Source: an uncultured Acidobacteriota bacterium | GTDB taxonomy: Bacteria > Actinomycetota > Acidimicrobiia > Spongiisociales > ZC4RG35 | Reading direction: 5' to 3' | DNA: 64,000 bases | Assembly (NCBI GenBank): GCA_963828465.1 | Contig: CAWHEU010000022.1 | Coordinates: 4,577 to 68,576, forward strand | In this document: positions 22,399 to 40,987 of the stretch, one piece after another | How the letters are laid out: the number at the start of each line of letters is the position of its first letter | How positions within the stretch are numbered: the stretch's first letter is position 1 | The notes under the pieces: model-generated | Database searches by the model: none | What the model was told of the DNA's origin: nothing | The model's input: only the letters and a program-made list of their open reading frames with translations | Program-made: the position numbers and the translations under genes

Positions 22399-25300
22399 CG
22401 GCTACGTCCCCACTATTCAATCCCTTCCCCGGTCTTCGGCCGTTTCGCGAGGACGAGACACCTCTCTTCTTCGGCCGAGATGCCCAGATCGACGAGCTCC
22501 TCGCCGAACTGGGTAGGTCCCGATTCGTAGCAGTCATGGGAGCCTCCGGAAGCGGTAAGTCGTCCCTGGTCACCGCAGGGCTTCTGCCCGCGCTCCAGGG
22601 TGGACTCTCACCGCGATTGGGGGCCAATTGGCGCATCGCCAGCTTGCGCCCCGGGGGCGACCCGGTGCGCAACCTGGCCAGGGCCCTCGTCGAACCCGGC
22701 GTCCTCGATCGAGACGGCTCCGATGAGACCAGAGGCGTCGATCAAACGGAGGCGTTGCTCAGACGAAGCGGTCTTGGTCTCGCCGATCTGGCAAGACGTG
22801 ACGAGAGCCTGAGAGACGGCCGCCTACTGGTCGTTGTCGACCAGTTCGAGGAGTTGTTCCGATTTCAGGACGCTGGGGGCAGGGCACACGACGGCGCGGA
22901 CAATCCGGCATTCGTCCGGCTCCTGATCGAGGCTGTCGCCGACGAATCCAACGTGAGTGTGATCTTGACCATGCGATCCGACTACTTGGGGGATTGTTCC
23001 CAGTTCGACCAGCTGCCCGAGACGATCAACCAAGGGCTCTATCTCGTTCCCCGGCTTACACGCACGCAGCTCCGCGGGGCGATCACCGGTCCAGTCGCCG
23101 TCGGGGGCGGAACGATTGCCCCTCGACTTGTGCAACGGCTCCTGAACGACGCCGGCGCGGATCCCGACCAGCTGCCCGTGTTGCAGCACGCCCTGATGAG
23201 GATCTGGGACCTGTGGACTGGGGACGTGACTGCTCCTGGGCCAATCGACCTCGAGCATTACGAGGCTGCCGGCGGACTCGAGGAGGCGCTCGCCCGGCAT
23301 GCCGACGAGGCATATGACGATCTGACCGACGATCGGAGCCGGCGGATCGCGGAGCTTGCCTTCAAGCGCCTCACTGAGCTCGGAAACGATGGTCGCGAGG
23401 GCCGTCACCCGGCCACGTTGGCCGAGATCGCCTCTGTTGCAGATGCCACGGTCGAAGAAACGCGCGAGGTGATCCGTCACTTCGAGCAGCCGGGAAGATC
23501 CTTCGTCATGGTGTCTGATGACGGAGTCGTCGACATCTCCCACGAAAGCCTCATTCGCCAATGGCCGAGACTCCGTGACTGGGTTGGCGAGGAGGCGGCC
23601 TCCCGAGACACGTATCACCGGCTGGCCGAGTCCGCCGGCCGATGGCGTCGAGGTGAGGCTGCTCTCATGCGAGATCCGGATCTGCAGCTAGCTGTGAACT
23701 GGTGGACGGACAACCAGCCGAGCGGTGCCTGGGCCGAGCGGTACGGCTCGACATTCCAGGACGCAGCCGACTACCTGGATCGGAGCCGCAAAGCCGAGAG
23801 AAGCCGGCGGCTTCTGACGTGGTCCGGTGTCGCAGGGCTGGGCGTCCTGGCAGTCCTGTTCGCGGTGTTGGCTGTATGGGCGATAACGGCAGAACAGGAC
23901 GCGAAGTATCAGGAACGTCTTGCTGTCGGAAGGCAACTCTCCGCGGTCTCGACCGAGCACGGACCGGAGCGTCGGACAACCAGCATCCTCACCGCATTGG
24001 AGGCTCTTCGGACTACCGAGACCGACGGACTGCGTCTCCCGGAGGCCGAGGAGGCACTGCGTGCTGCGATGCACGACCCGCTCGGCATCCGACTCCCCGG
24101 CCAGCCGGGTCAGCTCGGCCATGACGAGGATGTGACGACACTGGGTTTCAGTCCCGACGGGAGATGGTTGGCGACGGGTAGCGCTGACGACACGGTGTTG
24201 CTATGGGATCTGGAGGACACGGAAGGGGACCCGCGTCCGTTGCCCGGTCATGCCGACGACGTGGTGGCGTTGGCGTTCAGCCCCGACGCCCGTTGGTTGG
24301 CCACCGGCAGTCTCGACGGCACCGCCATGTTGTGGGACCTGGAAGATGCGGAAGCCAAGCCCCGGATCCTGGACGGCCATACAGATGAGGTGACATCACT
24401 TGCCTTCAGCCCCGATGGCAGCTGGCTTGCCACCGGGAGCGTCGACGAAACCATCCAGCTCCGTGAATTGGACAACCCGGATCTCGTGGCCCGTGTCCTC
24501 CAGAGCGAGGCGGGATTCATCCTCTGCCTGGCCTTCAGCCCTGACGAGAGGTGGCTGGCGGCCGGCACTGGCACCGGCGTCGGGTATCTGTGGGACATGG
24601 GGAATCCCGGCGGCGACCCCGAGACGCTCAGCGGTCACAACGATGCTGTGGTCGCTGTCGCTTTCAGCCGTGACGGTGCTTCGCTGGCCACCGGGAGCAG
24701 GGATGCGACGATCCGGCTATGGGACCCCGACGTTCCGACCAATCCGTTTGCCAGGCTGGAACAAGGCGACGCGGTGCTCGGCCTGGTGCTCAGCTCCGAC
24801 GGGAGATGGCTAGCCACCGGCGGTGAGGACAACGCCGCCCGTGTTTGGGACCTCCAGCGGTTGAGAGGATCCCCTGACCCGTCACTAGTCCTCGTGCACT
24901 CCGGCCCCGTGGAACGGGTCTCCTTCAGTGCTGACAACCGCTGGCTGGCCACCGGTGGTCCTGGTGACCCGGCTCGGCTCTTCCAGGTCAACGACGCGTC
25001 TCTGCCGCCCGTGGTGCTCGCCGGCCCGGTCACGGCCCTCGGGTTCAGCACCGACGACCGATGGCTGGCGATCGGATCGGATCAGGGCTCGGCTCGCCTT
25101 TGGGGGACGGACCAACTCCCAACACAACCGGCAGTGCTCGATCACGACGACAAGGTCTCAGCGATCGAATTTGGCCCGGACGGTCGTGTGGCCACGGGGA
25201 CCACAGCCAATGTCACGCGTCTGTGGAGTCTCGACGACCCTTCGGCTGAGCCCGAAGTGCTAGCGCAAACGGATTTCGGGTTCGATATGGCACAGGTGGA

Positions 25301-26141
25301 AGCGATCGCGTTCAGACCCGACGGACGTATGTTGGCCACCGGCAGCGGTGACATGCGGGTCCGGTTGTGGACGCTGGATCCTTCAGGGTCCCAACTCGTA
25401 TCCGAGGAGCCTCTCGAGGCTGGAATCAATGATCTGGCCTTTAGTGCGGACGGGGACCGGCTTGCTATCGCGGTGAAGGAAGAGGATGTCTTGCTGTGGG
25501 ATGTGGCGGAGCGGTCGTTCGAGCGTCTCGAGGGTCACAGTGCTGAGGTGCGGAGCGTGGCCTTCAGCCCGAACGGACGTTTGCTGGCCACTGGAGACCT
25601 GGACGGGGAGATCCGGGTCTGGAATCTCGAAGATCTGGAGGTTCCTCCGGAGTCTCTGCGCGCCCATGCCGAGCGGGTGACATCGTTGGCCTTCGACGGA
25701 GAGGGACGTCAGCTCGCGTCCGGGAGCTGGGATCAGACCGTCCAGATCTGGGAGGTCGACACGCGGAGCTACATCACGTTGAACACAGATGGTCGGGTCG
25801 ACAATGTAGCCCTTCGACCCGATGGGAAGTTGATTGCAGTGGCAGCCGATCAACCTCATTTATGGGATCTGACCGCCCCCGACCAGAACGACCCGATCGC
25901 CAATCCTGTCATTCTGCGGGACCACACCAGCGTCGTGAACGCGGTTGCATTCAGCGCGGACGGGAGATGGCTCGGTACCGGGAGTGACGATCACTCCGTT
26001 CGTCTCTGGCTCCAACTGGAGGAATTGGCAGAGCTCGGCTGTGCCAGCGCGGGACGGAACCTGAGTCACGACGAGGTGCAGGAAATCAATCCCGGCGCCA
26101 AGAGCGTTAGCACGTGCGAAGAATGGCCCGAGGGGTCTTAG
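22395..26141 (+). CDS. nSTAND-type P-loop NTPase (NACHT-like) with a central TM helix and ~15 C-terminal WD40 repeats
   Basis: PFPGLRPFREDETPLFFGRDAQIDELL…RFVAVMGASGSGKSSLVTAGLLP carries a Walker A motif. Walker B is LLVVVDQFEE. The hydrophobic segment LLTWSGVAGLGVLAVLFAVLAVWAI is a TM helix. Then ~15 repeats of the type GHxDxVxxLAFSPDGRWLATGSxDxTxxLWDL. Confidence 0.85.
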   Translation: MTATSPLFNPFPGLRPFREDETPLFFGRDAQIDELLAELGRSRFVAVMGASGSGKSSLVTAGLLPALQGGLSPRLGANWRIASLRPGGDPVRNLARALVEPGVLDRDGSDETRGVDQTEALLRRSGLGLADLARRDESLRDGRLLVVVDQFEELFRFQDAGGRAHDGADNPAFVRLLIEAVADESNVSVILTMRSDYLGDCSQFDQLPETINQGLYLVPRLTRTQLRGAITGPVAVGGGTIAPRLVQRLLNDAGADPDQLPVLQHALMRIWDLWTGDVTAPGPIDLEHYEAAGGLEEALARHADEAYDDLTDDRSRRIAELAFKRLTELGNDGREGRHPATLAEIASVADATVEETREVIRHFEQPGRSFVMVSDDGVVDISHESLIRQWPRLRDWVGEEAASRDTYHRLAESAGRWRRGEAALMRDPDLQLAVNWWTDNQPSGAWAERYGSTFQDAADYLDRSRKAERSRRLLTWSGVAGLGVLAVLFAVLAVWAITAEQDAKYQERLAVGRQLSAVSTEHGPERRTTSILTALEALRTTETDGLRLPEAEEALRAAMHDPLGIRLPGQPGQLGHDEDVTTLGFSPDGRWLATGSADDTVLLWDLEDTEGDPRPLPGHADDVVALAFSPDARWLATGSLDGTAMLWDLEDAEAKPRILDGHTDEVTSLAFSPDGSWLATGSVDETIQLRELDNPDLVARVLQSEAGFILCLAFSPDERWLAAGTGTGVGYLWDMGNPGGDPETLSGHNDAVVAVAFSRDGASLATGSRDATIRLWDPDVPTNPFARLEQGDAVLGLVLSSDGRWLATGGEDNAARVWDLQRLRGSPDPSLVLVHSGPVERVSFSADNRWLATGGPGDPARLFQVNDASLPPVVLAGPVTALGFSTDDRWLAIGSDQGSARLWGTDQLPTQPAVLDHDDKVSAIEFGPDGRVATGTTANVTRLWSLDDPSAEPEVLAQTDFGFDMAQVEAIAFRPDGRMLATGSGDMRVRLWTLDPSGSQLVSEEPLEAGINDLAFSADGDRLAIAVKEEDVLLWDVAERSFERLEGHSAEVRSVAFSPNGRLLATGDLDGEIRVWNLEDLEVPPESLRAHAERVTSLAFDGEGRQLASGSWDQTVQIWEVDTRSYITLNTDGRVDNVALRPDGKLIAVAADQPHLWDLTAPDQNDPIANPVILRDHTSVVNAVAFSADGRWLGTGSDDHSVRLWLQLEELAELGCASAGRNLSHDEVQEINPGAKSVSTCEEWPEGS
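24100..26010 (+). repeat. ~15 tandem WD40 repeat units (coding repeats) forming two beta-propellers
   Basis: The recurrent peptide AFSPDGRWLATGS…RLWDL is visible ~15 times, including the degenerate units at ~25142 and ~25860. Confidence 0.8.
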
Positions 26142-27395: not shown

Positions 27396-28344
27396 ATGGC
27401 CCATGTGACTTTCGTTCACGGAATCATGAATCAGCCTTCGCCCGCACGTCTGCTCAGGGAGTGGAAGCGGGACTTGGCCGACGGTGGGGACGGAGTGGAT
27501 CTCGATGTGTACGGCGTGACGTCATCGATGGTGTACTGGGCGGACGTCATGTATGCCGCCGCCACCGACGCCGGGGGCAGCCTCTCACGAGTCGATCGAG
27601 TACGAGGGCATCGAGTCGGGCGCCCTCACCGAGGTCGACGAGTCGTACATCGCCGAAGCGAGCGGGGACGAGAAGGACTTCATCGAGTCGATGATCGCCA
27701 ACTACGACCTCGACCATCCCGACGTGCCGGCAGCCGAGGCCGCTCCGGACGCGGGGGCAGAGGCCAGGGTGGCGGCGGCGTCGGCGTTGGAGGCAATACC
27801 TCTGCCGTGGTTCGTCAAGCGGCCGCTGATGCGGCTGCTGTTGCGTGACGTCCACCACTATCTCTTCAACACCAGTCATTCGCCTCGAACCGGGTCCAGC
27901 TACAAGGTCCGCGATGAGGTGAGGAAGCGGTTCGGCGCCGACCTCGGGGCCGTCGACGGTGGGCCCCATGTCGTAGTTGCGCACAGCCTCGGCTCGGTGA
28001 TCGCGTATGACTGTCTCAAACGGGTTGCCGGCACCAAGAAAGTGGACCTGCTGATCACGATCGGCACGCCGCTCGGCATGTCCGAGGTCCAGCACAACTT
28101 GAAGCCAGAGTGGTCGAAGGACGACGGCTACCCCGGAGAACTGCCGCGCTGGGTGAACGTGGTCGATCGTCTCGACCCGGTTTGTGTGGCCGACCCGATC
28201 ATCGCCAACGACTACATGCGGAAGAAGGCAGGCGTGGTGGTCGACGAGGTCGTGTCCAACGGCGGGGTGATGCGCCATCCGTCCGGCAAGTACTTCCGAC
28301 AGGCGGTCGTTCAGGATGCGGTGCGCAATGGATTGGGTGTCTGA
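27396..28344 (+). CDS. alpha/beta-hydrolase fold (lipase/esterase-like, GxSxG = AHSLGS); 1-nt frameshift in a G5 run near 27580
   Basis: N-terminus VTFVHGIMNQP, the nucleophile elbow VVVAHSLGSVIAYDCL and LLITIGTPLG are in two frames. These join at gccGGGGGcagc (27575-27586). RBS aaagggggac before the ATG. Confidence 0.7.
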
Positions 28345-28353
28345 GGGAGCCGG

Positions 28354-29919
28354 ATGTCGTTCTTCGACTCGCCACTTGGTGAGCAGCTCCGCTCCAGCCT
28401 CGATGCGGGGAAACCAGAGGACATCGCCGCCGCGGTAGGGGTGGTCAAGGGGAAGGTGTGGTCGGGGACAGTGCAGCCCGATCAGGTCGACGAGGTCCTC
28501 GCAGAACTGCAGCGACAACGACAGGTTCAGCACGTCATCGACATCGCCGATGCGGCCACCGCGGTCGGCTCGATCACGACGTCGGGCCGTCGCCGCTACT
28601 GCCAGATGCTGATCGAGTCGGGAGCCCTCCATGCCGGCGAGCTCGCCTGCGCAGAGCTTCTCGATCTGGCCGAGGATGCGAAGGAGCGGGGGGAGGCACT
28701 GGGGCTGCTCGGGCGGATCCGCAAGCAGCGTTACGTGACCAGCCGCCGGCCCGAGGATTTGATCGGCGCAATTGCCGCCTATCAGTTCGCATACGCGGGA
28801 GGCGGCGACCCGCTCTGGCATGGCATCAATCTCCTCGCACTCACCACCCGGGCCCATCGTGACGGAATCCTCGTTCCCCAACCGGTCGACACGGACGCTC
28901 TGACACGCACGCTCCTCGACGTAGTCAGGCAGACGGCACCCGAGTTGCAAGAGATCTGGGAGCGCACCACCGAGGTCGAGGCCCTGGTCGCCCTGGGCGA
29001 CAAGGCGTCGGTGGACGAAGCGGTGTCGGTGGCACAGAAACTCGCCAGCAGCAAGAGTGTCCGGCCGTTTGAGCTGGAGAGCCTTCGCCGTCAGCTGGCC
29101 GACATCTGGGAACTCGAGCCGCATCACCCGGTGCTGGTGGCCATCGCAGCGCAGAAGCTCCAACTCGGGGCCAGGGCCCATGTCGAGCTGCCCGATTCCG
29201 CGGGCCAGTTGGAGAAGATCTTCGGGACGGCCCTGCCTGTGGGGTACAAGCACCTGATGAGGGGTCTCGAGTGCGCAGAATCGGTGGGAAAGATCACCGA
29301 CGCATCCGAAGAGCCGTGGGGCACGGGATTCCTCCTACGCGGGAATCTGATCCATCCCGACTTCGGCGATGGACTGGTGCTGGCTACCAACGCCCACGTC
29401 TGTAGTCCAGAGCCCGGAGTGGGCAAGCTGCTGCCGAGCGAGGCGAAGGCTGTCTTCGACGTGACCAAGTCGGTCGATGGGGAGCAACTCGTCCTCACCG
29501 GCTTCGAGTGCCTGTGGAGCTCACCACCCTCGGTATGCGATGTCACCATCCTTCGCTTCACCGGACCCGAGCCGGCGCTCAAAGGCCAGCTCGACGTCGC
29601 CGCGTTGCCCCAGCCAGTGACGGAGGGCGCATATGTCTATGTCATCGGCCATCCGGCGGGGGGTGGGATCAAGTTTTCGATCAGGGGCAACGACCTTCTC
29701 GCCTATGACGCCGACATGTTCAAAGTCCACTACACCGCCCCCACCGAAGGGGGCAGCTCCGGGAGCCCGGTCTTCAACCAGGCATGGCAGCTGATGGCTG
29801 TTCATCACGCTGGAGATTCGAAGATGCACCGACTGGACGACCCTTCCGCTACGTATCAGGCCAACGAGGGGATCACGATCAAGGGGATCAGAGAGGAGTA
29901 CTCCAAGAATGGAAAATGA
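28354..29919 (+). CDS. N-terminal alpha-helical (TPR-like) domain fused to a C-terminal trypsin-like serine protease
   Basis: Catalytic triad context: LATNAHV (His), YDAD (Asp), GGSSGSPVF (Ser) in the C-terminal ~220 aa. The N-terminal ~300 aa is helical. No signal peptide. Confidence 0.8.
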   Translation: MSFFDSPLGEQLRSSLDAGKPEDIAAAVGVVKGKVWSGTVQPDQVDEVLAELQRQRQVQHVIDIADAATAVGSITTSGRRRYCQMLIESGALHAGELACAELLDLAEDAKERGEALGLLGRIRKQRYVTSRRPEDLIGAIAAYQFAYAGGGDPLWHGINLLALTTRAHRDGILVPQPVDTDALTRTLLDVVRQTAPELQEIWERTTEVEALVALGDKASVDEAVSVAQKLASSKSVRPFELESLRRQLADIWELEPHHPVLVAIAAQKLQLGARAHVELPDSAGQLEKIFGTALPVGYKHLMRGLECAESVGKITDASEEPWGTGFLLRGNLIHPDFGDGLVLATNAHVCSPEPGVGKLLPSEAKAVFDVTKSVDGEQLVLTGFECLWSSPPSVCDVTILRFTGPEPALKGQLDVAALPQPVTEGAYVYVIGHPAGGGIKFSIRGNDLLAYDADMFKVHYTAPTEGGSSGSPVFNQAWQLMAVHHAGDSKMHRLDDPSATYQANEGITIKGIREEYSKNGK

Positions 29920-30721
29920 CGCAATCCCTCCGGAGTTCCTGGAGCCCGAGGGCGACGCCGAGCGCCAGGATCCCGACCTCGTCTTCGAGACGACGTCAGC
30001 GACACTACGGGGGCTGTGGAATGACTGGATGTGCAAACGAGGTGACGGGACTTTCGTCGACGTCGAATTCTTCGGCCGCCGGATCGGCGGAGTGCCGACC
30101 CCGGCGGTCGACGCCTATCGGGCGCTCGAGGTAGCCCTGCGCTCCGCCGGTTACAAGCCAGATTCGCGGTGGGCGTACAACTGCAGGCTCATCGAGGGGA
30201 CGGACAAGCCCTCGCTGCACTCGGCCGGGATCGCAGTTGACATCGACCCGGACGAGAACCCGTTCTCGAAGGGTGACCCCTTCGCCGGGAAGATGGGTCC
30301 CGACCATGTCGCCGCGGCGCTGGCCATTCGCAACAGCGCCGGCGCCCGGGTGTGGTCCTGGGGCGGGCATTGGAACAAGCCCGATCGGATGCACTTCCAG
30401 CTCGACAGGGGGCCTGCGGCGGTGGATGTGGATTGGCGAACCGTCCCCGGTGGTGGCCCCGAAAGCGCCAGTTCGGGGTCAATGGACGTGAAGGAGGAAG
30501 AGATGGTTCTGTCCAAGAGCATGAAAGGCCCAGCAGTGGAGCGGTTCCAGCAGTGCCTGCTCGATTGGAATGCCAAGGCGCTGCCGAAGGACGGAGCCGA
30601 TGGTGTTTTTGGGAGCGAGACCGTCGAATGGGTGGGGCGGTTCCAGGAGGCCCTTGGTCTGGAGAAGACCGGAGTGATCGACGGGGTGACCGCGGCCTTG
30701 CTGGTCGCCCACGGGAAGTAA
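29909..30721 (+). CDS. M15 family (VanY/D-Ala-D-Ala carboxypeptidase-like) zinc peptidase with a C-terminal peptidoglycan-binding (PG_binding_1) domain; no signal peptide
   Basis: SLHSAGIAVDID (H…D zinc ligands) and GGHWNKPDRMHFQ (His). C-terminal GPAVERFQQCLLDWN…DGVFGSETVEWVGRFQEALGL matches the PG-binding fold. 11-nt overlap with the upstream stop. Confidence 0.8.
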   Translation: MENDAIPPEFLEPEGDAERQDPDLVFETTSATLRGLWNDWMCKRGDGTFVDVEFFGRRIGGVPTPAVDAYRALEVALRSAGYKPDSRWAYNCRLIEGTDKPSLHSAGIAVDIDPDENPFSKGDPFAGKMGPDHVAAALAIRNSAGARVWSWGGHWNKPDRMHFQLDRGPAAVDVDWRTVPGGGPESASSGSMDVKEEEMVLSKSMKGPAVERFQQCLLDWNAKALPKDGADGVFGSETVEWVGRFQEALGLEKTGVIDGVTAALLVAHGK

Positions 30722-30727
30722 CAAGCC

Positions 30728-32245
30728 ATCAAGGTCTTCCTGAGCTACCGGCGGGACGACACGGCGGGGCGCGCCGGAAGGCTCCACGACGCCCTGGCCT
30801 CGAGTTTCGGCACCCGCAACGTGTTCATGGACGTTTCCGCCATCGCGGTCGGCACCGACTTCGTCGACCAGGTGGAACGAGCGATCTCGACGAGCGACGC
30901 CTCGCTGGTGGTGATGGGGCCGAATTGGCTCGGGGCCACTGACCCCGAAGGCCGTCGGCGGCTCGACGATCCCCAGGACCACGTGAGGTCTGAGGTGCGC
31001 TCCGCGCTGGCCTCACCCAACCCGGTGGTTCCGGTGCTGGTCGGGGATGCATCGTTGCCGACCGAGGACCAACTGCCTGACGATCTGAAAGCCCTGGCGC
31101 GCCGACAAGCCGTGGAATTGCGGGACGAGACATGGTCTGAAGATGTCGAGATGCTGGTCCGGCGTCTCGAAGGCAAGGAGACGGTCCGGGAACCCCGCCG
31201 CTGGATTCTGCTGGCCATTGGCTTGATACTCCTGGGTGGCGTCGGCGCCGCTATCTGGATGGCTCAGGCAGGCGGCGAGGATGAGTTGACCCAATGCTCG
31301 GTGCCGGACGAGACATGGACCACGATCGACGTGGAACCCGGCGCCACGGACGTCGAACAATTGGAGCGGGATCGGGCACTCCGCTACACGGTGGTGAGTA
31401 CGGATTTCAGGGATGAACCCGGGGACGAGTGGTACGTCGTGCTCCATGTGAGGCTGGAGAACGAGTCCACGGACGTGGCGGGAAACGACGACCACACCGG
31501 GTACGGACCGTCGATCTTCGACGCCCTGCACGTCGATGAGATCTCGGTCGGGGGCCCTTACTGCTTTGGCGAGAACAGTGGTGACAGCGATCTCGCCCCG
31601 GGGGAGGCGGCCAACGCACGGGTTGGATTCCTCTCCGTACCTGGACCCCACCGAGGCAAGTCTGATGCTCGAGACCGATGGGCCCCTCTTTATCGAGATC
31701 ACCCCGGGCGCGTGATGCCGACGGTCCTGTTCTCGGGCCACATGGTCGATGCACCAGACCGGCCGTCTCCACGCTTCCCACCCGAGCGTGTTCCCCTGGT
31801 GCGGCGGGCGATCGCGGAAGCCGTCTGGCTCATCGATGACACCGACGCGGAGGCGATCTCGGGACTCGCCTGCGGGGGCGATCTCCTCTTCGCCGAGGAA
31901 TGGCTGAAGACCGGGCGGCCCTTGCACGCCTATCTGCCACGTGAAGAGGCGGATTTTCTCGACGAGTCGGTTCGTTTTGCCGGCTCGGAGTGGGTGGACT
32001 CGTTCCGTGAAGTGACCGCTGATCCGAACCTGGTCCTGATCGGTCCGGACCAAGAGATGCTTGGTTTGAACGAACCGCACACCGCGAACAACCTCCGCAT
32101 GCTCGAAGCTGCGTTGCTGCGGCCCGGCGCCCTCAACGGTCTGTTCCTTTGGGACGGCAAGGGAGGCGACGGTCCGGGAGGCACCGAGCACCTGGCCTCT
32201 GAGGTGGTCGAGCAGGGCGGGAGTGTCACCGTTCTCCGTCCGTAG
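30728..32245 (+). CDS. TIR domain – TM helix – C-terminal Rossmann-like (LOG/SLOG-like) domain protein; non-canonical start (ATC where ATG is expected)
   Basis: (I/M)KVFLSYRRDDTAGRAGRLHDALASSFGTRNVFMDVSAIAVGTDF…ASLVVMGPNWL is a canonical TIR. TM helix RRWILLAIGLILLGGVGAAIWMA. The C-terminus has ISGLACGGDLLFAEEWL … LFLWDGKGGDGPGGTEHL, reminiscent of LOG/SLOG Rossmann domains. The reading frame is open only from the TAA of the upstream gene (30719-30721). The first in-frame ATG (30830) lies inside the TIR domain. Confidence 0.65.
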   Translation: MKVFLSYRRDDTAGRAGRLHDALASSFGTRNVFMDVSAIAVGTDFVDQVERAISTSDASLVVMGPNWLGATDPEGRRRLDDPQDHVRSEVRSALASPNPVVPVLVGDASLPTEDQLPDDLKALARRQAVELRDETWSEDVEMLVRRLEGKETVREPRRWILLAIGLILLGGVGAAIWMAQAGGEDELTQCSVPDETWTTIDVEPGATDVEQLERDRALRYTVVSTDFRDEPGDEWYVVLHVRLENESTDVAGNDDHTGYGPSIFDALHVDEISVGGPYCFGENSGDSDLAPGEAANARVGFLSVPGPHRGKSDARDRWAPLYRDHPGRVMPTVLFSGHMVDAPDRPSPRFPPERVPLVRRAIAEAVWLIDDTDAEAISGLACGGDLLFAEEWLKTGRPLHAYLPREEADFLDESVRFAGSEWVDSFREVTADPNLVLIGPDQEMLGLNEPHTANNLRMLEAALLRPGALNGLFLWDGKGGDGPGGTEHLASEVVEQGGSVTVLRP

Positions 32246-33145: not shown

Positions 33146-36065
33146 CTAGGACCGGTCCTCGATGGCCTCCGGGGGCTCGATCCACTGCAATACCGTTCGG
33201 TAGTCGGCGGCGGCCCCTTCGGCGATCAGGCGGTCCCGCTCCGGTGGAAGGAGACCACCCTCGACCTCTTCACGGAATCGGGCCATTTCGTCCGGACTGG
33301 CCCCGACCCGGTTCCGCTCGACGCTGCCGAGAAACCGGGCGGCTGCAGACAGGTCACCTTCCGCCAGAGCAAGACGGAGGGCCTGTGCCGGGATCCCGGC
33401 CTGGACCTCTCGATCGAAGAGGAGGAGACGGTGGGCGGCCGATGTGAGCTCGACCCTGGCCGCCGCGAGACGTCCTTCATCGATGTGGCTGCGGATCGCA
33501 CGGGCGCCCGATCGGGCGGAGCAGGGCAGATCACCCACTTCGGCCAAGATCCCGGCTGCCTCGGCCAGATCGTCGGTTGAGGCCCCCAGTCCGAGATCCT
33601 GGGTCACCGCCCCGTGGTAGTAGAGGGCATGGCCCAACCCGTGACGGGATCCCAGATCACTCAGGATCTCGATGCTCTGGCGCAAGTTGGCCAGGACCCA
33701 CTCATCGTGACCGGATCCGATGTGGCTGGCCGAGGTCATCATCGATGCCGCGGCCAGATATCCGTCGCCGACCGTCAGCGCCTTCGAGATCGCGGCTTCG
33801 ACATGCTCCCGCCGCTGTTCCGGAGGACCGGCCTGCCCGAAGGCGAGCATGAACTCGATGATCGCCTGATCCCATTCCGGGTCCCACATCGGCGGGTGCC
33901 GGACATTCGCCAGAATCTGACGACCCTCCTCCATCCAGCCGCCCGCGTCCTGATGACCGACGAGGTTGGAATAGGCCATCCCGCGGGTCAGCGTGAGCCA
34001 CCCGACGAGCGCGTCGTCCCCGGCGCTCCGGGCACATTCGAGACCCAGATCTGCATAGTTCACCGCGGCCGGGTCGGTGAGGAAGGTCGCCAGCAGAGAA
34101 GCGGCCAGCCACGCCCTGGCGGCCATGGCGGGCGAGGCTTCGTCGCCATGTGATCGGAGCGCTCCCACCAACAGGTCCCGGCCTTCGACCTGGAGACTGG
34201 ATTGGGCCCAGAACCAGGTCAGATCGAATCCGATGTCGAGGAATCGGTCGATCTCCCCACGGCCGAGCAACGTGGACATGGCAACGCGGATGTTGTCGTT
34301 CTCCAAACAGGAGACTGCGGTTGGCCTGACGCTGGTCGGGACCGCGCAAGCTCGGGGCGATCTGCGCCACTGCGTTGGCGTAGTGAATGGCGTGGAGGAG
34401 CCGTACTTCGTCTTCCTCTCCTTCATCGGCCAGACGGGCCTGTCCGTATTGGCGGATCGGCTCGAGGAGTCGGAAGCGAGAAAAGCGAGCTTGCTGGATA
34501 GGCACCACGAGCGACTTGTCCACCAGCTGATCGAGCAAACCGAAGACATCGGTGGTGTCTCCGACGTTCTCAGCAGCAGGGAGATCGAACCCGCCGGCGA
34601 AGACCGAAAGACGTCGGAAAAGCGCCGACTCTTCCTCGCTGAGCAGGTCGTAGGACCAGCCGATCGTGTTCTCGAGGGTTCGCTGCCGGCGCACCGTCGT
34701 CTTCGAGGCTGCGGTGAGGACCCGGAACGACGTCTCGAGCTGGTCGGCGAGGTCGAGGAGGGTGAGAGTGCGGACCCGTGCCGCGGCCAGCTCGATGCCG
34801 AGAGGAATCCCGTCGAGACGACGGCAGATCCTGGCGATGGCTTCCAGGTCGGCGTGCGAAGGGGCGAGATCCGGCTTCATCCTGGCGGCCCGGTCGAGGA
34901 AGAGACGCACCGACTCCGATCGCGCCAGGTCCGATCCCTCTCCGGGCAGGCCAAGCGACGAGACCCGGAACACGATCTCGGCGGAGGTCCCGAGCGTCTC
35001 CCGTGATGTGGCCAGGATCGACAGGCCGGGGCTGGATCCGAGCATTTCTACCGCGATCGCCGCAGCCTCTTCGAGGAGGTGCTCACAGTTGTCCAGCAGC
35101 AATAGGAGCTTTCTTCGGGCTAGGTGAGCCTTGATCACCTGGATCAGGCCCATCCCGTCGCCGGCGCGCAGGCCCCAGACGTCGGCCACCTCATTCACGA
35201 CCAGGGCCGGATCTGCGATGTCGGCCAGCCCGGCCATCCAAACGCCATCAGGGAAGTCGTCTCCGAGGGCTCCGGCTACTTCCATGGCGAGACGGGTCTT
35301 GCCGGTCCCACCAACCCCGGTGAGGGTTACCAGCCTGTTGGACTGGAGCAGGGCCTTTACTTCCTCGAGGTCCTCGCGCCTCCCTACAAACGAGGTGAGT
35401 TGCGCCGGGAGATGAACCAGGTCGACCGGCTCGGTGCGCAGTGGCTCGGTTACCTCGGGCAGATCGGGATGGAGCAGCTCGAAGAGGCGCTCCGGGCGTT
35501 CCAGGTCCCTGAGAGGATGGACCCCTCGGTCCTGCAACTCCATGGGGGCTTCAACCAATTCTGCGGTCAGCTCAGCAGTGGCTCCCGACACCAGAATTTG
35601 CCCACCGTTCGCCGCTGCCATCACGCGGGCCGCCCTGTTCACATCGGGCCCGAAGTAATCGCCGGCCCGTTCGTACGAAGTGCCGGTATGGACCCCAATC
35701 CTGACGCGGATCGCCGGCCCTTCCCAAGCTTCGTCCAGAAGACCGAGCTGGGCCCGCATTGCGGCGCCAAGCGCGGCCAACGGCGTGGTGAAGGCGGCGG
35801 CAAAAGAATCCCCGGCGCTGGAGAAGACGTACCCATCGAGGTCAGCGATGGCGGATTCGAGAATGCGGTCGTGGGCGATCAGGCTCGCCGCCATGCCGTC
35901 ACGGTCCGCTTCCCAAAGACGGGTCGAACCGGCCACGTCGCTGAACAGGAACGAGACCGTGCCGGTGGGCCTGGAGTCCACCGTCGGAGGGTATCGGGGT
36001 CCCACGCGGGCCGCTAAGACGTCGGGTTCTACCGCGTCGGCAGGAACCAGTAGACGTAGCCGCAC
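33146..36065 (-). CDS. class III adenylate cyclase – NB-ARC/AAA ATPase – TPR STAND-family protein (paralog 1); frameshift near 34306-34328
   Basis: TGTVSFLFSDVAGSTRLWE…GDSFAAAF (cyclase). TLTGVGGTGKTRLA (P-loop). LLLLDNCEHL (Walker B). TPR-like C-terminus. The last ~390 aa are in another frame (33146..34549). Confidence 0.8.
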
Positions 36066-36099
36066 TCGGCAGCTCTCGTGAATGCACCCATCGCCGGGG

Positions 36100-37497
36100 T
36101 CAGTCGCCGGTTGTCAGCCAGCCCGGCTCGGGGTCGCCGAACATCTCGAGCAAGTAGTCGCGTGAGGCCTCGACCGCTCGGCGGGGCGCATCGAGCGAGG
36201 CCTTGAGCTTGAAGTCCTCCTTGAGCACCTCGCCGTCGACGAGGACGGTTTTCACATTGGAGATGTCGGCCGCGCAGACGACCGCACCCACCGGGTCGAT
36301 GATCGGGGCGATATTCACAGCCGACCCGTCGATGATCACGACGTCCGCCTTCTTCCCGGGTGTCAGCGACCCGGTGCGATCGGCGATTCCCGCCACATCG
36401 GCACCACCGATCGTGGCCCAGGCGAGTGCATCACGGGCGGTGATGAGGCCAGGCGATGCTTCCAAGCCGTCGAGGTCATCGTCCCAGGCCTCCTGGTGCT
36501 TGCGCCCCCGCTCGGACCCGAAGACGGCATGCATCTGGGTGAACTGGTCGGCCGACGCGGTAGTTGCAACGTCCGACGAGAGCCCGATCGGGATGTTGTA
36601 CTCGACAGCCGTGACCGCCGGCGCCCACCCGTGTCCCATCTGGATCTCTATCTGCGGGGCGAAGCTGACGTTCCCGCCCGAATCGCTGACGAGCTGCCAC
36701 TCCTCGTCGGTGAAATGCGAGGCGTGGACATACGTCGTGCCCGGATAGAGGAGGTCCATGTCCCGTAGCGCCGTGATCTGGCCCTTCGTGTAGCCGAACC
36801 GGTCCATGGCGACGTGCACGGTGATGTCGATGCCGAGCTCGTTGGCCAGCTCCCAGTCGTGACGCACGACTTCGGGCTTGCAAAAGCCGGGTCCTCGGGT
36901 GGCCAGGCCCATGGTGACCCGGCCCTCGTCGCTGCTGAAGTACTGCGACCGCAAGCGGCGTGCCTCGTCACCGTCCGACGTCAGGACGCTTCCGGTGTAG
37001 TCGGGGCCGAACCACCAGTCCACCAGCGATGTGTTCGGGAAGCCGTATGCGAAGACCGATCGGATGCCCGTCTCTTCGAGCGCGGCGACCGAGGCGTCGG
37101 CATGCTCGGGCGTGTTCATGATGTGGGCCCAGTCGACCAGCGTTGTGATGCCGGCGTTGATGCACTCGAGCGCTCCCCACTGTGTCGCCGAGTGGACATC
37201 CTCAGGCCGGTAGTGCGGGGCGAACTTGTCGAGGATCGCGCTGAAGTATGTGATCAGAGCGAAGTCGGGGGCACATGTCCGGATGCACGTCTCCCAGGTG
37301 TGCCGATGGGTGTCTATGAAGCCGGGGATGACAATGTCGCCGGTCGCATCGATGACCCGGGCATCGTCGGCCGACAGGTCGGTGCCGATGGCGGCGATCT
37401 TGTCGTCCTCGATCAGCACGTCAGCCTTCGGCAGCTCGCCGAGCTCAGGGTCCTGGGTCAGGACGATCCCGCCGCTCAAGAGGATTCGATCAGTCAC
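36100..37497 (-). CDS. amidohydrolase superfamily protein (cytosine deaminase/chlorohydrolase-like, metal-dependent)
   Basis: PGFIDTHRHTWE (HxH metal motif). 465 aa. Typical TIM-barrel amidohydrolase sequence. Confidence 0.85.
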   Translation of the reverse strand: MTDRILLSGGIVLTQDPELGELPKADVLIEDDKIAAIGTDLSADDARVIDATGDIVIPGFIDTHRHTWETCIRTCAPDFALITYFSAILDKFAPHYRPEDVHSATQWGALECINAGITTLVDWAHIMNTPEHADASVAALEETGIRSVFAYGFPNTSLVDWWFGPDYTGSVLTSDGDEARRLRSQYFSSDEGRVTMGLATRGPGFCKPEVVRHDWELANELGIDITVHVAMDRFGYTKGQITALRDMDLLYPGTTYVHASHFTDEEWQLVSDSGGNVSFAPQIEIQMGHGWAPAVTAVEYNIPIGLSSDVATTASADQFTQMHAVFGSERGRKHQEAWDDDLDGLEASPGLITARDALAWATIGGADVAGIADRTGSLTPGKKADVVIIDGSAVNIAPIIDPVGAVVCAADISNVKTVLVDGEVLKEDFKLKASLDAPRRAVEASRDYLLEMFGDPEPGWLTTGD

Positions 37498-37616
37498 ACC
37501 TAATGCCTTTCTCCTTGGCCTCGGTCAGGATCGTAACCCCTCCAAGCAAGAGGTTTCCGAGCAGCATGCCTCGTTCGGAAAGGAGCGGATTCAGACCGAC
37601 TAACCAGTGAACCGGC

Positions 37617-39201
37617 CTAGTTCTCGCGTCGGGTGGAGAGAGCTTTTTCCGTCAGGGCGAACACCTTGACCGGTCTCTGTACACCCTTCATCACCAGGTC
37701 TTCGACCGGAACCCCATCGACCCGGTCCTGTACCGCTGCCATGGTCCGCTCAGAGACCAGGACCTGACGCGGCTCGGCAGCCGTGGCAAGTCGAGCCGCC
37801 ACGTTCACGTGGTTTCCCACCACCGTGTAGTCGGTCCTCGTCGACGAACCGATGTTGCCCACCGTGACATATCCGGTGCTGATCCCGACGCCGACGGAGA
37901 GCTCCTCCTCAGAACGCATCCACGTGGCCCGCAGCTCCTCCACCTTGGCCAACATCTCGAATGCGGTAGCCACGGCCCGTTCGGCATGATCCTCGAACGG
38001 GATGGGATCACCGAAGAAAGCAAGCACTCCGTCCCCCAGGTACTTGTCCAGCGTGCCCCCGTTGGAGAAAACGATGTCGGTCATGGCGCTGAAGTACTCG
38101 TTCAGGGCATCGACGAGCTCCTCTGGCTCCATTCGCTCCGCGATCTGTGTGAAACCCCGGATGTCCGAGTAGAGGATCGTCAGATTGCGTCGGACCGAGG
38201 CGAAGGCCACCGGCTCGTCCCCGGCGAGTATCGCGTCCGCCACTTGCGGAGAGACGTATCGCCTCAGCTGCTCGGTCCGCTGCAGCTGGGTGACCTGTTC
38301 TTCGATGGTCTGCTCCAGATTGGCATTGAGCTGGCTCAATCCCTCGTACAAGGTGGAGAGCTGCCTGCTCGTCCGGTTCAGGTTGACCGTCAGCCTCCCG
38401 AACTCGTCACGGTTGGGGACTTCTACTTCCTGGCCGAAGTCGCCGTCGGCGATCCTTCCCAGTGCCAGATCGATCTTTCGCACCGGGCGCACCAGCGACC
38501 ACGACAGGATGGCTCCCATCGCCAGAGCGGTGAGCAGGCTGACCCCGGCGAACGCGGCAACAGTCACCGTGAGGAAGCGGCGATTCCCCCGGAAGTTCTC
38601 GAGCTCGGACGCAATGTCTTCCCTCCAGCGAGCCGATCATCAGGTTGAGATCGTCTTCCAGCTCATGTGAGATCTCGTGCTCGGCCGAGATGTGAACATC
38701 GGAGGCTCGGGTCATGTCGCCGGCCTCGTAGAAAGCCAAGACTTCTTCAGCTGCCTCGGCGTACCGGAGGTCGGTTGCGTCGATTCGGTCGACGATGGCG
38801 ACCAGCTCTTCGTCTGCCACATCTCTGATCGCCTGCATGTCGTTCGTGAAGTTCTCTTTGGCCTGGGCGATCTTGTCGTTCCACGAGTCGACCTGGGTGA
38901 TCAGGGCCATAGCCCGGTAATGGCTCTGCGCTGTCACTGCATAGATGCCCTGCTGGGCGAGCTCCAGCTGATCTTGGAGCTCGATCACCTGGTCCATCTG
39001 CCGGTTCATCGCGTTGATCACGACGATGCTGAAGACCCCCATGGCAAGAAGGAGCAGCGCACTCAACAGGAAGCCGGCGAGCAGCTTGGTGTGGATCGTC
39101 GCCGGCGCACGCGCCACCATGTCGATGAGCGGGCGCACCCAACGGACGGGGAGTGGATCTGGATTTGGTTCCGGCGCGCCCTGATTGACCGCGTCTGTCA
39201 T
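37617..39201 (-). CDS. membrane sensor adenylate/guanylate cyclase with a HAMP domain; frameshift near 38620-38635
   Basis: N-terminal TM, periplasmic helical sensor, second TM, HAMP (DGDFGQEVEVPNRDEFGRL), cyclase (ILYSDIRGFT…LDKYLGDGVLAFFG). The two halves are in different frames. Confidence 0.8.
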
Positions 39202-39322
39202 GTGCCTCCCACCTGACCGATGCCCGGCTTTAGAGCGATGAAGCCTATTCCCTCGAGCTGATCGTCGTAGGGGTGTTTATCCCCATGCCAGCGGCGTGCC
39301 AGATCGGAGACAGCGCTACCGG

Positions 39323-39787
39323 TTAGGCCAGCCGATGCTCGTAGTGAATCAAAGTGATGTCGGGGAACACGGTCTCACCGACTCTCACAAAGCCAAGCCT
39401 CTCGTAGAAATGTTGATTGCGGGTGGCGTACGCCGGTGTGTCCAGTGTCCAGACGGTGGCCGGAAACGTCCGCTCGATGAATCCCATCGCCTGAGTGCCG
39501 ATGCCTTGGTTGTGGTGGGCGGGATCGATGGCGAGGACGCCGAGATGGAAATGCCCCGCACCTTGATCGATGACAGTCATCCCTCCGATGATCTCGCCAT
39601 TCAATGAGACCTTGTAGCCCTCGCCGCGGGCAATCGTGGCCAGAGTCTCCTCCACCGAGTCGTAGCCGGGAGGGCCGCCGATCTCGACCCCTGGATAAAG
39701 GCGAGCATCATCGTGGAAAGCCGCGATCTGCACTTTGACCAGGTCCTCGGCGTCAGCGGGAGTCGCCAGCTCGAAATCGATGTTCAT
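39323..39787 (-). CDS. GNAT family N-acetyltransferase
   Basis: …HNQGIGTQAMGFIERTF… is the acetyl-CoA binding motif Q/RxxGxG/A. 154 aa. Confidence 0.85.
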   Translation of the reverse strand: MNIDFELATPADAEDLVKVQIAAFHDDARLYPGVEIGGPPGYDSVEETLATIARGEGYKVSLNGEIIGGMTVIDQGAGHFHLGVLAIDPAHHNQGIGTQAMGFIERTFPATVWTLDTPAYATRNQHFYERLGFVRVGETVFPDITLIHYEHRLA

Positions 39788-40987
39788 CGACGTTCCGCCC
39801 GGAAGATCGTCACCGGGTCGGCGATACCCTTCAGCTCGAATTCACCGATCTCGGTGAGCCTGAAAGCCGTCCCCCGAGACGATCCCCACCACCGGCTCAC
39901 CGACGTACACCTCGGCTGCGTCAGCCTGGGAAGCGATCCGGGCCGCGAGATTGACGGTCCGCCCGAAGTAGTCACCTTCGTCGTAGAGCATTGGGCCGGC
40001 ATTGACCCCGATATGGGTGTCGGGGAGCCCGCGGCTGGGTGCGCTGTCGACCATCTCCAGGGATGCCATCACGGCATCGTCGGGATCGCGGAACTGGAGG
40101 AACACGCCGTCGCCCAGCAACTTGATCACGTTGCCCCGATAATCGGCGGCCACCTCGGTCGCCAGCTGAGCAAAGGTGAGGGCGACCTCTGCCGCCACAT
40201 CGTCACCGGATTCCTCGGTCAGTTCCGTGAAGCCGCTGAGATCGGCAAACACCGCGGTCTCCAACTGGTGCGGCTGGCGTTGCCGAACACCGGCCTGCTC
40301 GAGGGCGGTCTCGACGTGCCCGAACTGATGCTCGGTGGAGAATGTCTCCGAGTGTCGACGGAACAGCCAGCTCAACAGGTCCTCGCCCGAGCGGCCAACC
40401 CGGAGGCCGACTTCACGCAGTGCCGCCTCGTACGCGTCATTGTCGTTGAGTCCTCTTCGCCGAAACTGTTCCTCGACTGTCTGATGGAAGTAATGGGGCA
40501 GGTACTGGGCAACGCGACGCGTGCTGTCTCCCCAGACCCGCGCCATCCGGATCACGTCCCGTTCATCCAGACCCGCGGCGAAGAGGATCCGGACCTCCCG
40601 CAGGGCTTCGAGGTCCTCTTGGCGGACGAACTCGTCCGCCTCGGGCCGGGGCAAGCCAAAGGCCATGTAGATGCTGTCGAGCGTGGCAAATGGGATCCCG
40701 ATCGCTTCGGCCTCTTCGGCAAAGGTGACATCCGACCGAGGGAATCGCCGGCCCGCGCTCTCGAGGTAGCCGAGCGACAGATGACCTGATGCCAGCGCAG
40801 TGGCCAGCGACTCCTCCTCGATTCCCATCTCATCGAGCTGACGGACCACCCGCACCTGCATGACGTCCCGACGCTCGAACGCGCCGTCCTCGGATTGAAG
40901 GATTCCCAGGTCTACGAGCCTCCTGATGTGCGCAGGGCTCGTGCCGGACCGATCGGCGAGCTCCTCTTCGGAGAGGCGGTCGGCCAT
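39784..40987 (-). CDS. MerR-like HTH + class III adenylate cyclase; frameshift near 39865-39875
   Basis: N-terminal LSEEELADRSGTSPAHIRRLVDLGIL (HTH). C-terminal cyclase TAVFADLSGFTELTE…IKLLGDGVFLQF…. The last ~25 aa (RLTEIGEFELKGIADPVTIFRAERR) are in another frame. Confidence 0.75.

What the first reader, a model, noticed from the sequence alone, without database searches (positions are those of the whole stretch)
30728..32245. Second TIR protein with a TM helix and a C-terminal LOG/SLOG-like Rossmann domain
The C-terminal ~250 aa contain GLACGGDLLFAEEWLKTGRPLHAYLP and LFLWDGKGGDGPGGTEHL. These resemble the glycine-rich loops of LOG/SLOG-family nucleotide-binding domains (the PGGxGTxEE-type motif). 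SLOG domains have been proposed to bind or process nucleotide-derived second messengers. A TIR fused to one via a membrane anchor suggests a self-contained signal-generating and signal-sensing unit.
Basis: inference. Interest (0 to 1): 0.6.

Follow-up and report, generated by a model that had tools for sequence, protein, structure and literature searches.

The report
Two genes, not one: TIR plus SLOG
The apparent single "TIR–membrane helix–SLOG" protein is really two neighbouring genes, a membrane-anchored TIR sensor and a separate 176-residue SLOG-fold protein, joined only by one extra base in this assembly; the two do seem to work together in a conserved, uncharacterised defence-type gene cassette.

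Summary

The fusion is not real. Relatives of the TIR gene at 72-85% identity end about 26 codons earlier. That conserved tail (LDPTEASLMLETDGPLFIEITPGA*) sits in the window in the +1 frame, after one extra C at 31636. About 1900 homologues of the C-terminal part were found; nearly all of the 120 best listed are stand-alone proteins of about 176 aa. The window has at least five other frameshifts in conserved genes nearby; the two that could be placed on DNA are also homopolymer insertions, so an assembly error is the most likely cause.

The domain between the helix and the "SLOG" is an extracytoplasmic beta-sandwich, so a fusion would put the SLOG outside the cell.

The native unit is gene A (TIR-TM-sandwich, 328 aa, conserved ATC start) translationally coupled to gene B (SLOG). 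Both sit in a conserved cassette with an alpha/beta-hydrolase, a TPR-S-trypsin protease and an M15 peptidoglycan peptidase. A Thoeris-like signal-and-sensor mechanism is inferred, not shown.

The parts
30728..31715 (+). Gene A: TIR - TM helix - extracytoplasmic beta-sandwich protein. It is 328 aa once the extra C at 31636 is removed. It reads in frame 0 up to 31635 and in the +1 frame afterwards, with stop TGA at 31713-31715. The start is most likely the ATC at 30728.
   Evidence: Homologues of 293-329 aa at 55-85% identity end ...VGFLSSLDPTxASLMLETDGPLxIEITPGx*. That tail is found in the +1 frame. The corrected translation is 328 aa, against an intact 329-aa ORF in L007.
30734..31156 (+). TIR domain (residues 3-143), SARM1-like. 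The predicted catalytic Glu is E89, in the motif DxVRxEV.
31202..31267 (+). Single transmembrane helix (about residues 159-180), preceded by the basic stretch REPRR. This predicts N-terminus in, C-terminus out.
   Evidence: Sequence. Helix 160-181 in the AlphaFold model of P0031. R157, R158 and W177 are invariant.
31295..31712 (+). Extracytoplasmic beta-sandwich domain (DUF4352/MPT63-like) with two invariant cysteines (C190, C279). Its last two strands are encoded after the frameshift, in the +1 frame.
31636..31636 (+). Extra C in CTCTC[C]GTACC. This is the single-base insertion that puts gene A into the frame of gene B and creates the apparent fusion.
   Evidence: DNA alignment with L001, L007, L008 and L009, none of which has this base. 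tblastn of the L004 TIR protein switches frame at 31636/31641.
31715..32245 (+). Gene B: stand-alone 176-aa SLOG-fold protein (YpsA/YAcAr-like). Its ATG shares its A with the stop codon of gene A (TGATG).
27396..28344 (+). Cassette gene 1: alpha/beta-hydrolase-like protein (315 aa in relatives). In the window it is split by a frameshift near 27575.
   Evidence: Pfam Abhydrolase_6, weak. tblastn with the L004 315-aa protein changes frame at 27574-27581. Found next to gene B in most related Acidimicrobiia loci.
28354..29919 (+). Cassette gene 2: TPR-S sensor repeats + trypsin-like serine protease (521 aa). The motifs TNAHV, DVTIL and GGSSGSP are present.
   Evidence: Pfam TPR-S E 2e-12 and Trypsin_2 E 3e-15. 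Conserved next to gene B.
29909..30721 (+). Cassette gene 3: M15 D-Ala-D-Ala-type peptidase + peptidoglycan-binding domain (270 aa), with no signal peptide. Its stop lies 2 codons before the ATC of gene A.
   Evidence: Pfam Peptidase_M15_4 and PG_binding_1. Sequence.

Best explanation
The region holds two separate, translationally coupled genes.

Gene A (30728-31715) encodes a membrane-anchored TIR protein. It has a cytoplasmic SARM1-like TIR domain, one membrane helix, and an extracytoplasmic DUF4352/MPT63-like beta-sandwich.

Gene B (31715-32245) encodes a free 176-residue SLOG-fold protein of an unannotated family closest to YpsA/YAcAr.

Both genes are the last two of a conserved five-gene cassette: alpha/beta-hydrolase, TPR-S-trypsin, M15 peptidase with a peptidoglycan-binding domain, TIR-TM-sandwich, SLOG.

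Inferred mechanism, not shown:
1. The outside domain of gene A senses an envelope or phage cue and drives TIR assembly.
2. The TIR cleaves NAD+ into an ADP-ribose-derived signal.
3. The SLOG protein binds that signal and, together with the TPR-S module, switches on the protease and the lytic enzymes.
This would be a Thoeris-like abortive or cell-death response.
For: Two genes, not one:
- Relatives of gene A at 55-85% identity are 293-329 aa and stop at ...IEITPGx*.
- That tail is in the window's +1 frame.
- The extra C is absent from four related contigs.
- Gene B has 1898 homologues. Nearly all of the 120 best listed are about 176 aa. It is stand-alone or fused to other partners in 86 loci, never to the TIR.

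Assembly error:
- At least 6 frameshifts in conserved genes between 19.2 and 39.2 kb.
- The three that could be placed on DNA are +1 insertions that lengthen a homopolymer run: C to CC at 31636, AA to AAA at 34305, CC to CCC at 38621.

Topology:
- Basic residues before the helix, an invariant Cys pair after it, and structural matches to secreted or lipoprotein sandwiches.

SLOG fold:
- G54, D56 and P154-G155-G156-T157 are invariant.

Functional link:
- Same gene order in L001, L004, L005, L007-L009 and L015. Gene A stop and gene B start overlap or lie 25 nt apart.
- In other phyla the same SLOG domain is fused or adjacent to TPR-S in 63 of 86 loci. It sits next to TIR, patatin, nSTAND1, and DUF4231, DUF3380 and DUF4071 genes.

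Precedent:
- The SLOG of ThsA binds the TIR product 3'cADPR. A TPR-bearing effector (ThsI) responds to TIR-made cADPR (bioRxiv 10.64898/2025.12.03.692087).
Against: - No raw reads were available, so a genuine mutation at 31636 in this strain cannot be excluded.
- The window's own contig is not in the searched collection.
- No biochemical evidence exists for NADase activity, for the identity of any signal, or for ligand binding by gene B.
- Gene B has many invariant polar residues (D12, R16, R20, D56, E84, S85, N125, R128). These would fit an enzyme as well as a receptor.
- TPR-S is a more constant partner of gene B than TIR: 63 against 31 of 86 loci, although my TIR profile is narrow.
- None of the cassette's proteins other than the TIR and the trypsin domain matches a PADLOC defence model, and the trypsin match is weak.
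Confidence: 0.8

Rival explanations
1. The fusion is real in this strain. A true 1-nt insertion created a chimeric TIR-TM-(truncated sandwich)-SLOG protein that acts as a self-contained signal generator and sensor.
For: The frame is open for 505 codons with no stop in the 26-codon bridge. TIR and this SLOG domain do occur in one polypeptide elsewhere: P0282 is AAA_35-TIR_2-TPR-S-SLOG.
Against: The bridge is an out-of-frame reading of a conserved tail, and the fusion deletes the last two strands of the sandwich. With one helix and a basic cytoplasmic flank, the SLOG would end up outside the cell. No TIR-SLOG fusion of this kind was found in 86 loci. The window carries at least five more frameshifts in conserved genes, and the two placed on DNA are also homopolymer insertions. 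The one database 'fusion' of this type, P0066, has an Arg/Ala/Pro-rich middle typical of out-of-frame translation.
Confidence: 0.07
2. Gene B is an enzyme rather than a receptor. It would be a SLOG-type nucleotide-processing protein that makes, matures or destroys the TIR-derived signal, for instance to set a threshold or reset the system.
For: Many invariant polar residues cluster in the loops after strands 1, 2 and 5 (GHMxDxPxRxxPRFP, GGD, ESV, N..R, GDGPGGT). SLOG families include true enzymes such as LOG, which appears among the structural hits.
Against: The LOG catalytic Glu pair after PGGxGT is not conserved; the position after T157 varies among E, Q, G, R, K and A. The closest structures (YpsA, DprA, ThsA SLOG, TRPM2 MHR) are binders, not hydrolases. 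Frequent fusion to TPR-S, a predicted sensor module, fits a receiver role.
Confidence: 0.25
3. Gene A is a decaying pseudogene: it has a non-canonical start and a frameshift. Only gene B and the TPR-S protease would then be functional, so the TIR-SLOG adjacency has no present function here.
For: There is no ATG/GTG/TTG before the first TIR strand. There is a frameshift near the 3' end.
Against: The ATC is conserved at the start position in 10 related contigs, including contigs whose names and intact reading frames suggest short-read assemblies, while L015 has TTG and L006 has ATG there. The 34 codons from the ATC to the internal ATG show 469 synonymous against 190 non-synonymous pairwise codon differences, so the stretch is under protein-level selection. 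All invariant TIR residues are intact in the window.
Confidence: 0.07
4. The adjacency of TIR and SLOG is incidental. On this view gene B belongs functionally only with TPR-S proteins and does not read a TIR product.
For: TPR-S is fused or adjacent in 63 of 86 loci, against TIR within 5 kb in 31 of 86. Many proteobacterial loci show gene B with neither partner detected.
Against: Within Acidimicrobiia the TIR-then-B order with overlapping or near-overlapping stop and start is kept across contigs whose gene B products are only 70-90% identical. TIR genes recur near gene B in unrelated phyla with different gene orders (L002, L003, L024, L029, L036). My TIR profile was built from one TIR subfamily, so it undercounts.
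Confidence: 0.1

Closest known systems
Thoeris anti-phage systems (type I ThsB TIR + ThsA SIR2-SLOG; type III with several TIRs and a SLOG effector)
   Different: The SLOG here is free-standing with no SIR2 or other effector domain. It gives no hit to PADLOC or NCBIfam Thoeris models. The TIR is membrane-anchored with an outside domain. The likely effectors are a TPR-S-trypsin protease, an M15 peptidoglycan peptidase and an alpha/beta-hydrolase.
YpsA (B. subtilis, PDB 2nx2) and the YAcAr/YspA SLOG family (Pfam PF10686)
   Different: Only 13% identity to YpsA. The window protein gives no Pfam hit even at E <= 1. Gene B has its own N-terminal motif GHMxDxPxRxxPRFP. Its genomic context is conflict-system genes, not gpsB and cell division.
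TPR-S-centred conflict systems predicted by the Aravind group, and type VIII Thoeris (ThsI, CMP-hydrolase + TPR, activated by cADPR)
   Same: TPR-S/MAP3K_TRAF_bd repeats are coupled to TIR genes and to variable lytic effectors. TPR-centred assemblies with YspA, patatin and TIR partners have been listed before (bioRxiv 10.1101/2023.05.26.542521). The TPR is proposed to perceive the TIR signal.
   Different: Here TPR-S is on a trypsin protease and the SLOG is a separate protein. No member of this cassette has been tested. In type VIII there is no SLOG.
SARM1 / TIR-1 NADase TIR domains
   Different: Bacterial protein with a single-pass membrane anchor and an extracytoplasmic sandwich in place of ARM/SAM domains. 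Activity is untested.

Membership tests
SLOG superfamily (SMF/DprA/LOG Rossmannoid fold) | Three-layer alpha/beta Rossmann-type fold that matches solved SLOG proteins better than other Rossmann folds | tested here: met
SLOG superfamily (SMF/DprA/LOG Rossmannoid fold) | Glycine-rich ligand-binding loops after strand 2 (GxD/E in the YpsA clade) and after strand 5 (PGGxGT-like) | tested here: met
   G50, G54, D56 and P154, G155, G156, T157 are invariant in 87 homologues and nearly so in 136 remote ones. Their positions relative to the strands come from the model.
Pfam SLOG families (YAcAr PF10686, YpsA/DUF1273, LOG/Lysine_decarbox, DprA and others) | Score above the family's gathering threshold | tested here: not met
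   No Pfam hit on the SLOG region of the window protein at E <= 1. Of 136 remote homologues, 8 hit YAcAr only weakly (best E 0.003). One relative, P0066, reaches 29.9 bits against a cut-off of 28.2.
LOG cytokinin-type phosphoribohydrolase | PGGxGTxEE motif with the catalytic Glu pair | tested here: not met
   The family motif is GDGPGGTx[HQ][LM]. The residues after T157 are variable or His, and no conserved Glu pair is present.
Thoeris (types I-IV as modelled in PADLOC 2.0 and NCBIfam 20) | Effector matching ThsA (SIR2-SLOG or TM-Macro) or the type III proteins, next to a ThsB-type TIR | tested here: not met
   Gene B has 0 PADLOC and 0 NCBIfam hits. The gene A TIR gives only partial, far sub-threshold hits to ThsB and ThcB4 models (34 bits against a cut-off of 220).
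TIR domain (Pfam TIR_2), NADase-competent type | TIR fold and a conserved catalytic glutamate | tested here: met
   Relatives stop 26 codons before the SLOG start. None of 86 loci has a TIR-SLOG fusion. The fusion depends on one inserted base.

The most novel reading that the evidence does not exclude
The free 176-aa SLOG protein and the TPR-S repeats form a previously undescribed two-part receiver for a TIR-made nucleotide signal. The receiver is split over two proteins here and fused in one protein in Proteobacteria, Cyanobacteria and Bacteroidota. On this reading it controls proteolytic, peptidoglycan-lytic and lipolytic effectors, in a five-gene Thoeris-like system. The TIR of that system is a single-pass membrane receptor with an extracellular sensing domain, and its dose is held down by a conserved AUC start codon.
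Probability: 0.3. Interest if true: 0.6.

Novelty: new variant of a known kind. Interest (0 to 1): 0.35.

Why it matters
The fused architecture should not be carried forward as stated. It is a frameshift product, and any catalogue of "TIR-TM-SLOG" proteins built from indel-prone assemblies will contain such chimeras; P0066 looks like another one.

What remains is useful. Gene B represents a large SLOG family with no Pfam, NCBIfam or PADLOC model: 2126 clusters at 50% identity, and more than 500 genomes among GTDB species representatives. The family is tied to TIR and TPR-S genes across many phyla.

If the SLOG-plus-TPR-S pair reads a TIR signal, that would add a receptor type and new effector classes to TIR signalling: a trypsin protease, an endolysin-like M15 peptidase and patatin. 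It would also give an example of a bacterial TIR wired like a Toll-like receptor, with a sensing domain outside, one helix, and the TIR inside.

Tried and rejected
1. Sequence searches of gene B against PDB chains, as a single sequence and as a profile, gave only chance-level hits with E >= 0.14. The fold comparison was needed to place it.
2. Pfam, NCBIfam and PADLOC gave no model for gene B.
3. I took P0066 (TIR_2 + YAcAr, 586 aa) as a possible genuine TIR-SLOG fusion. hhalign gave 99.8%. Its 280-residue middle is Arg/Ala/Pro-rich in a way typical of out-of-frame translation, so I do not count it.
4. A phage-encoded 'sponge' role for a free SLOG protein: there is no homologue in 50,697 phage records.
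5. Exact look-ups of the window's fused 474-aa product and of its TPR-S-trypsin protein, to identify the source contig, found nothing on record.
6. The afdb50 structure library was not available.
7. The 2015 paper that defined the SLOG families is not held, so I could not check whether this family was already named there.
8. I considered programmed frameshifting. It was rejected because the shift is an insertion relative to intact relatives, not a conserved slippery site, and because it removes conserved strands.

Full report
**1. What is in the sequence**

In the frame of the finding, the sequence is open from just after the TAA at 30719-30721 to the stop at 32243-32245. It contains both quoted motifs. 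The codon at 30728 is ATC. No ATG, GTG or TTG precedes the first TIR strand (KVFLSYRRDD), so the mechanical ORF list starts the frame at GTG 30821.

Residues 3-143 match Pfam TIR_2 (E 5.3e-14, 53 bits against a cut-off of 28). Nothing else in the 505 residues matches Pfam, NCBIfam or PADLOC beyond partial TIR hits.

**2. The single ORF is a frameshift product**

A search with the whole 505 residues found close relatives (72-85% identity) that are only about 294-329 aa long and cover just the first 53-61% of the query. Aligned, they all end ...ARVGFLSSLDPTxASLMLETDGPLxIEITPGx*. The window diverges after VGFLS into VPGPHRGKSDARDRWAPLYRDHPGRV.

Translating the other frames shows the conserved tail, LDPTEASLMLETDGPLFIEITPGA*, intact in the +1 frame. 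It ends at TGA 31713-31715, whose A is the first base of ATG 31715.

A DNA alignment with four related contigs places the difference at a single extra C: CTCTC[C]GTACC at 31636. Removing it gives a 328-aa protein, colinear with the intact 329-aa ORF of L007.

The last 176 residues, searched alone, have 1898 homologues. Nearly all of the 120 best listed are stand-alone proteins of about 176 aa, the best at 94% identity. In 86 loci that carry this domain it is never fused to the TIR.

**3. Why the extra base is probably an error**

Reference proteins from near-identical contigs map to the window in two or three frames for five further genes. These are a 527-aa protein (two shifts near 20.2 and 20.45 kb), the alpha/beta-hydrolase (about 27575), a cyclase-HTH_77 protein (about 34305) and a HAMP-cyclase (about 38621). 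Their identity on either side of each shift is 68-98%.

The shifts that can be placed on DNA against L001 are +1 insertions that lengthen a homopolymer run: AA to AAA at 34305 and CC to CCC at 38621, like C to CC at 31636.

The related contigs L001 and L005 carry their own, different indels in the same genes. Six independent inactivating mutations in 20 kb of otherwise conserved genes is far less likely than indel-prone sequencing. I could not see reads, so a real mutation is not excluded.

**4. Anatomy of gene A**

An AlphaFold model of the full-length homologue P0031 (58% identical, mean pLDDT 88.9) has three parts:
- a TIR domain (residues 1-147);
- one long helix (160-181);
- a beta-sandwich (200-325, pLDDT about 95).

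Three features place the sandwich outside the membrane and the TIR inside: the basic REPRR before the helix, two invariant cysteines after it (C190, C279), and the secreted nature of the structural matches. A SLOG domain fused behind the sandwich would therefore sit outside the cell. The frameshift also removes the last two sandwich strands.

The predicted catalytic Glu (E89, in DxVRxEV) and the other invariant TIR residues are intact.

**5. Anatomy of gene B**

With an 87-sequence alignment the model reaches pLDDT 92.2 and pTM 0.89. It is a six-stranded alpha/beta fold.

The conserved features are:
- GHMxDxPxRxxPRFP after strand 1;
- SGxACGGD after strand 2, a GxD signature like the one needed for YpsA function (PMC6459960);
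- ESV, then N..R;
- GDGPGGT after strand 5.

The Glu pair of the LOG motif PGGxGTxEE is not conserved. This argues against a LOG-type hydrolase.

At the sequence level the family is orphan. There is no hit in Pfam, NCBIfam, PADLOC or PDB for the window protein. A few relatives touch the YAcAr model weakly.

The family is large: 2126 clusters at 50% identity with E <= 1e-3, and more than 500 hits among GTDB species representatives. It spans Acidimicrobiia, Proteobacteria, Cyanobacteria, Bacteroidota, Desulfobacterota and others.

**6. Context**

In Acidimicrobiia relatives the order is conserved: alpha/beta-hydrolase, TPR-S-trypsin, M15 peptidase with a peptidoglycan-binding domain, TIR-TM-sandwich, SLOG. 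Gene A's stop and gene B's start overlap (TGATG, GTGA) or lie 25 nt apart. More distant members shuffle the same parts: an FHA-TIR divergent from gene B in L002, and gene B divergent from the rest in L003.

Elsewhere the domain is the C-terminus of TPR-S proteins that also carry SLATT, sigma-54 AAA+, kinase or AAA_35-TIR modules. It also sits in several other arrangements:
- [TPR-S-SLOG][patatin][TIR];
- [patatin][TPR-S-SLOG];
- [nSTAND1][TIR] divergent from [SLOG][TPR-S];
- on a Rhizobium plasmid, next to DUF4231, DUF3380 (annotated only as a DUF; from my own knowledge a muramidase-type peptidoglycan hydrolase), patatin and DUF4071 genes.

With home-made profiles, a TPR-S-like module is fused to gene B in 29 of 86 loci and adjacent in 34. 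A TIR of the gene A type lies within 5 kb in 31.

The window's trypsin, M15 and hydrolase proteins keep their catalytic motifs (sequence). Upstream lie a TIR_2-DUF4062 gene and an nSTAND1-WD40 NTPase. The region is therefore a conflict-system island.

**7. Mechanism**

Shown:
- two coupled genes;
- a TIR fold with its catalytic Glu;
- a single helix and an outside sandwich;
- a SLOG fold with conserved loops;
- recurrent linkage to TPR-S, TIR and lytic enzymes.

Inferred from Thoeris precedent, in which the ThsA SLOG binds TIR-made 3'cADPR and the TPR-bearing effector ThsI responds to cADPR:
- gene A senses a cue at the envelope;
- its TIR makes an NAD+-derived signal;
- the SLOG protein receives that signal and, with TPR-S, releases the protease and lytic enzymes.

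The main alternative is that gene B processes the signal enzymatically.

**8. Verdict**

The TIR, the membrane helix and the SLOG-like Rossmann domain are all there, but the fused "self-contained" protein is most likely an artefact of one inserted base.

TIR-SLOG pairing is a known theme. This SLOG family, its split or fused relation with TPR-S, and the protease and peptidoglycan-hydrolase cassette are uncharacterised variants of it.

Noticed in passing
window 30719-30740; L001 9007, L004 9902, L005 3563, L007 4401, L008 5284, L009 8079, L010 7902, L011 2089, L016 8951: The codon at the start position of the TIR gene is ATC in the window and in nine related Acidimicrobiia contigs. In seven of these ten an in-frame stop lies 3-4 codons upstream and no canonical start lies between. 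L015 has TTG and L006 has ATG at the same place. The 34 codons from the ATC to the first internal ATG show 469 synonymous against 190 non-synonymous pairwise differences, so they are translated. This is probably a conserved AUC start, or reinitiation after the M15 gene. Gene callers start these proteins at an internal Met and so cut off the first TIR strand.
   Followed up: partly
window ~20206-20276, ~20435-20469, ~27575, 31636, ~34305, ~38621: There are at least six frameshifts in conserved genes within 20 kb. The three placed on DNA are +1 insertions that lengthen a homopolymer run (C to CC, AA to AAA, CC to CCC). The window looks like an indel-prone (long-read-type) assembly, so other 'fusions' or 'split genes' in it need the same check.
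   Followed up: yes
window 27396-30721: Three genes upstream form a conserved cassette with the TIR and SLOG genes: an alpha/beta-hydrolase-like protein, a TPR-S + trypsin-like protease with an intact His/Asp/Ser triad, and an M15 peptidase with a peptidoglycan-binding domain but no signal peptide (endolysin-like).
   Followed up: partly
window 20893-26141: The 'first' TIR protein (TIR_2 + DUF4062, 501 aa) is followed by a 1295-aa nSTAND1 NTPase with many WD40 repeats. In Paraburkholderia (L036) an nSTAND1 gene and a TIR gene lie divergent from a SLOG gene and a TPR-S gene, so these neighbours may belong to the same system.
   Followed up: partly
window 33146-40987 (minus strand): Three adenylate/guanylate-cyclase-domain genes sit just downstream, syntenic with L001 and L005: cyclase + HTH_77 of about 972 aa, HAMP-cyclase of about 527 aa, and a cyclase + GNAT protein. 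Two of them are frameshifted in the window. Any relation to the TIR/SLOG cassette is unknown.
   Followed up: no
P0066 (586 aa): This database protein is annotated TIR_2 + YAcAr and looks like a real TIR-SLOG fusion. Its residues ~170-400 are Arg/Ala/Pro-rich, as in out-of-frame translation of GC-rich DNA. It is probably another frameshift chimera.
   Followed up: partly
L024 277-4629; L045 5347-9539; L059 7388-10558; L087 (Rhizobium plasmid CP050566.1 33738-40319): In other phyla the same SLOG domain is fused to TPR-S. It is paired with patatin phospholipases, TIR, alpha/beta-hydrolases, DUF4231, DUF3380 and DUF4071 (DUF4231 being SLATT-like and DUF3380 a muramidase-type enzyme is my own reading, not a tool result). 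This is a recurrent receiver-plus-lytic-effector theme.
   Followed up: partly
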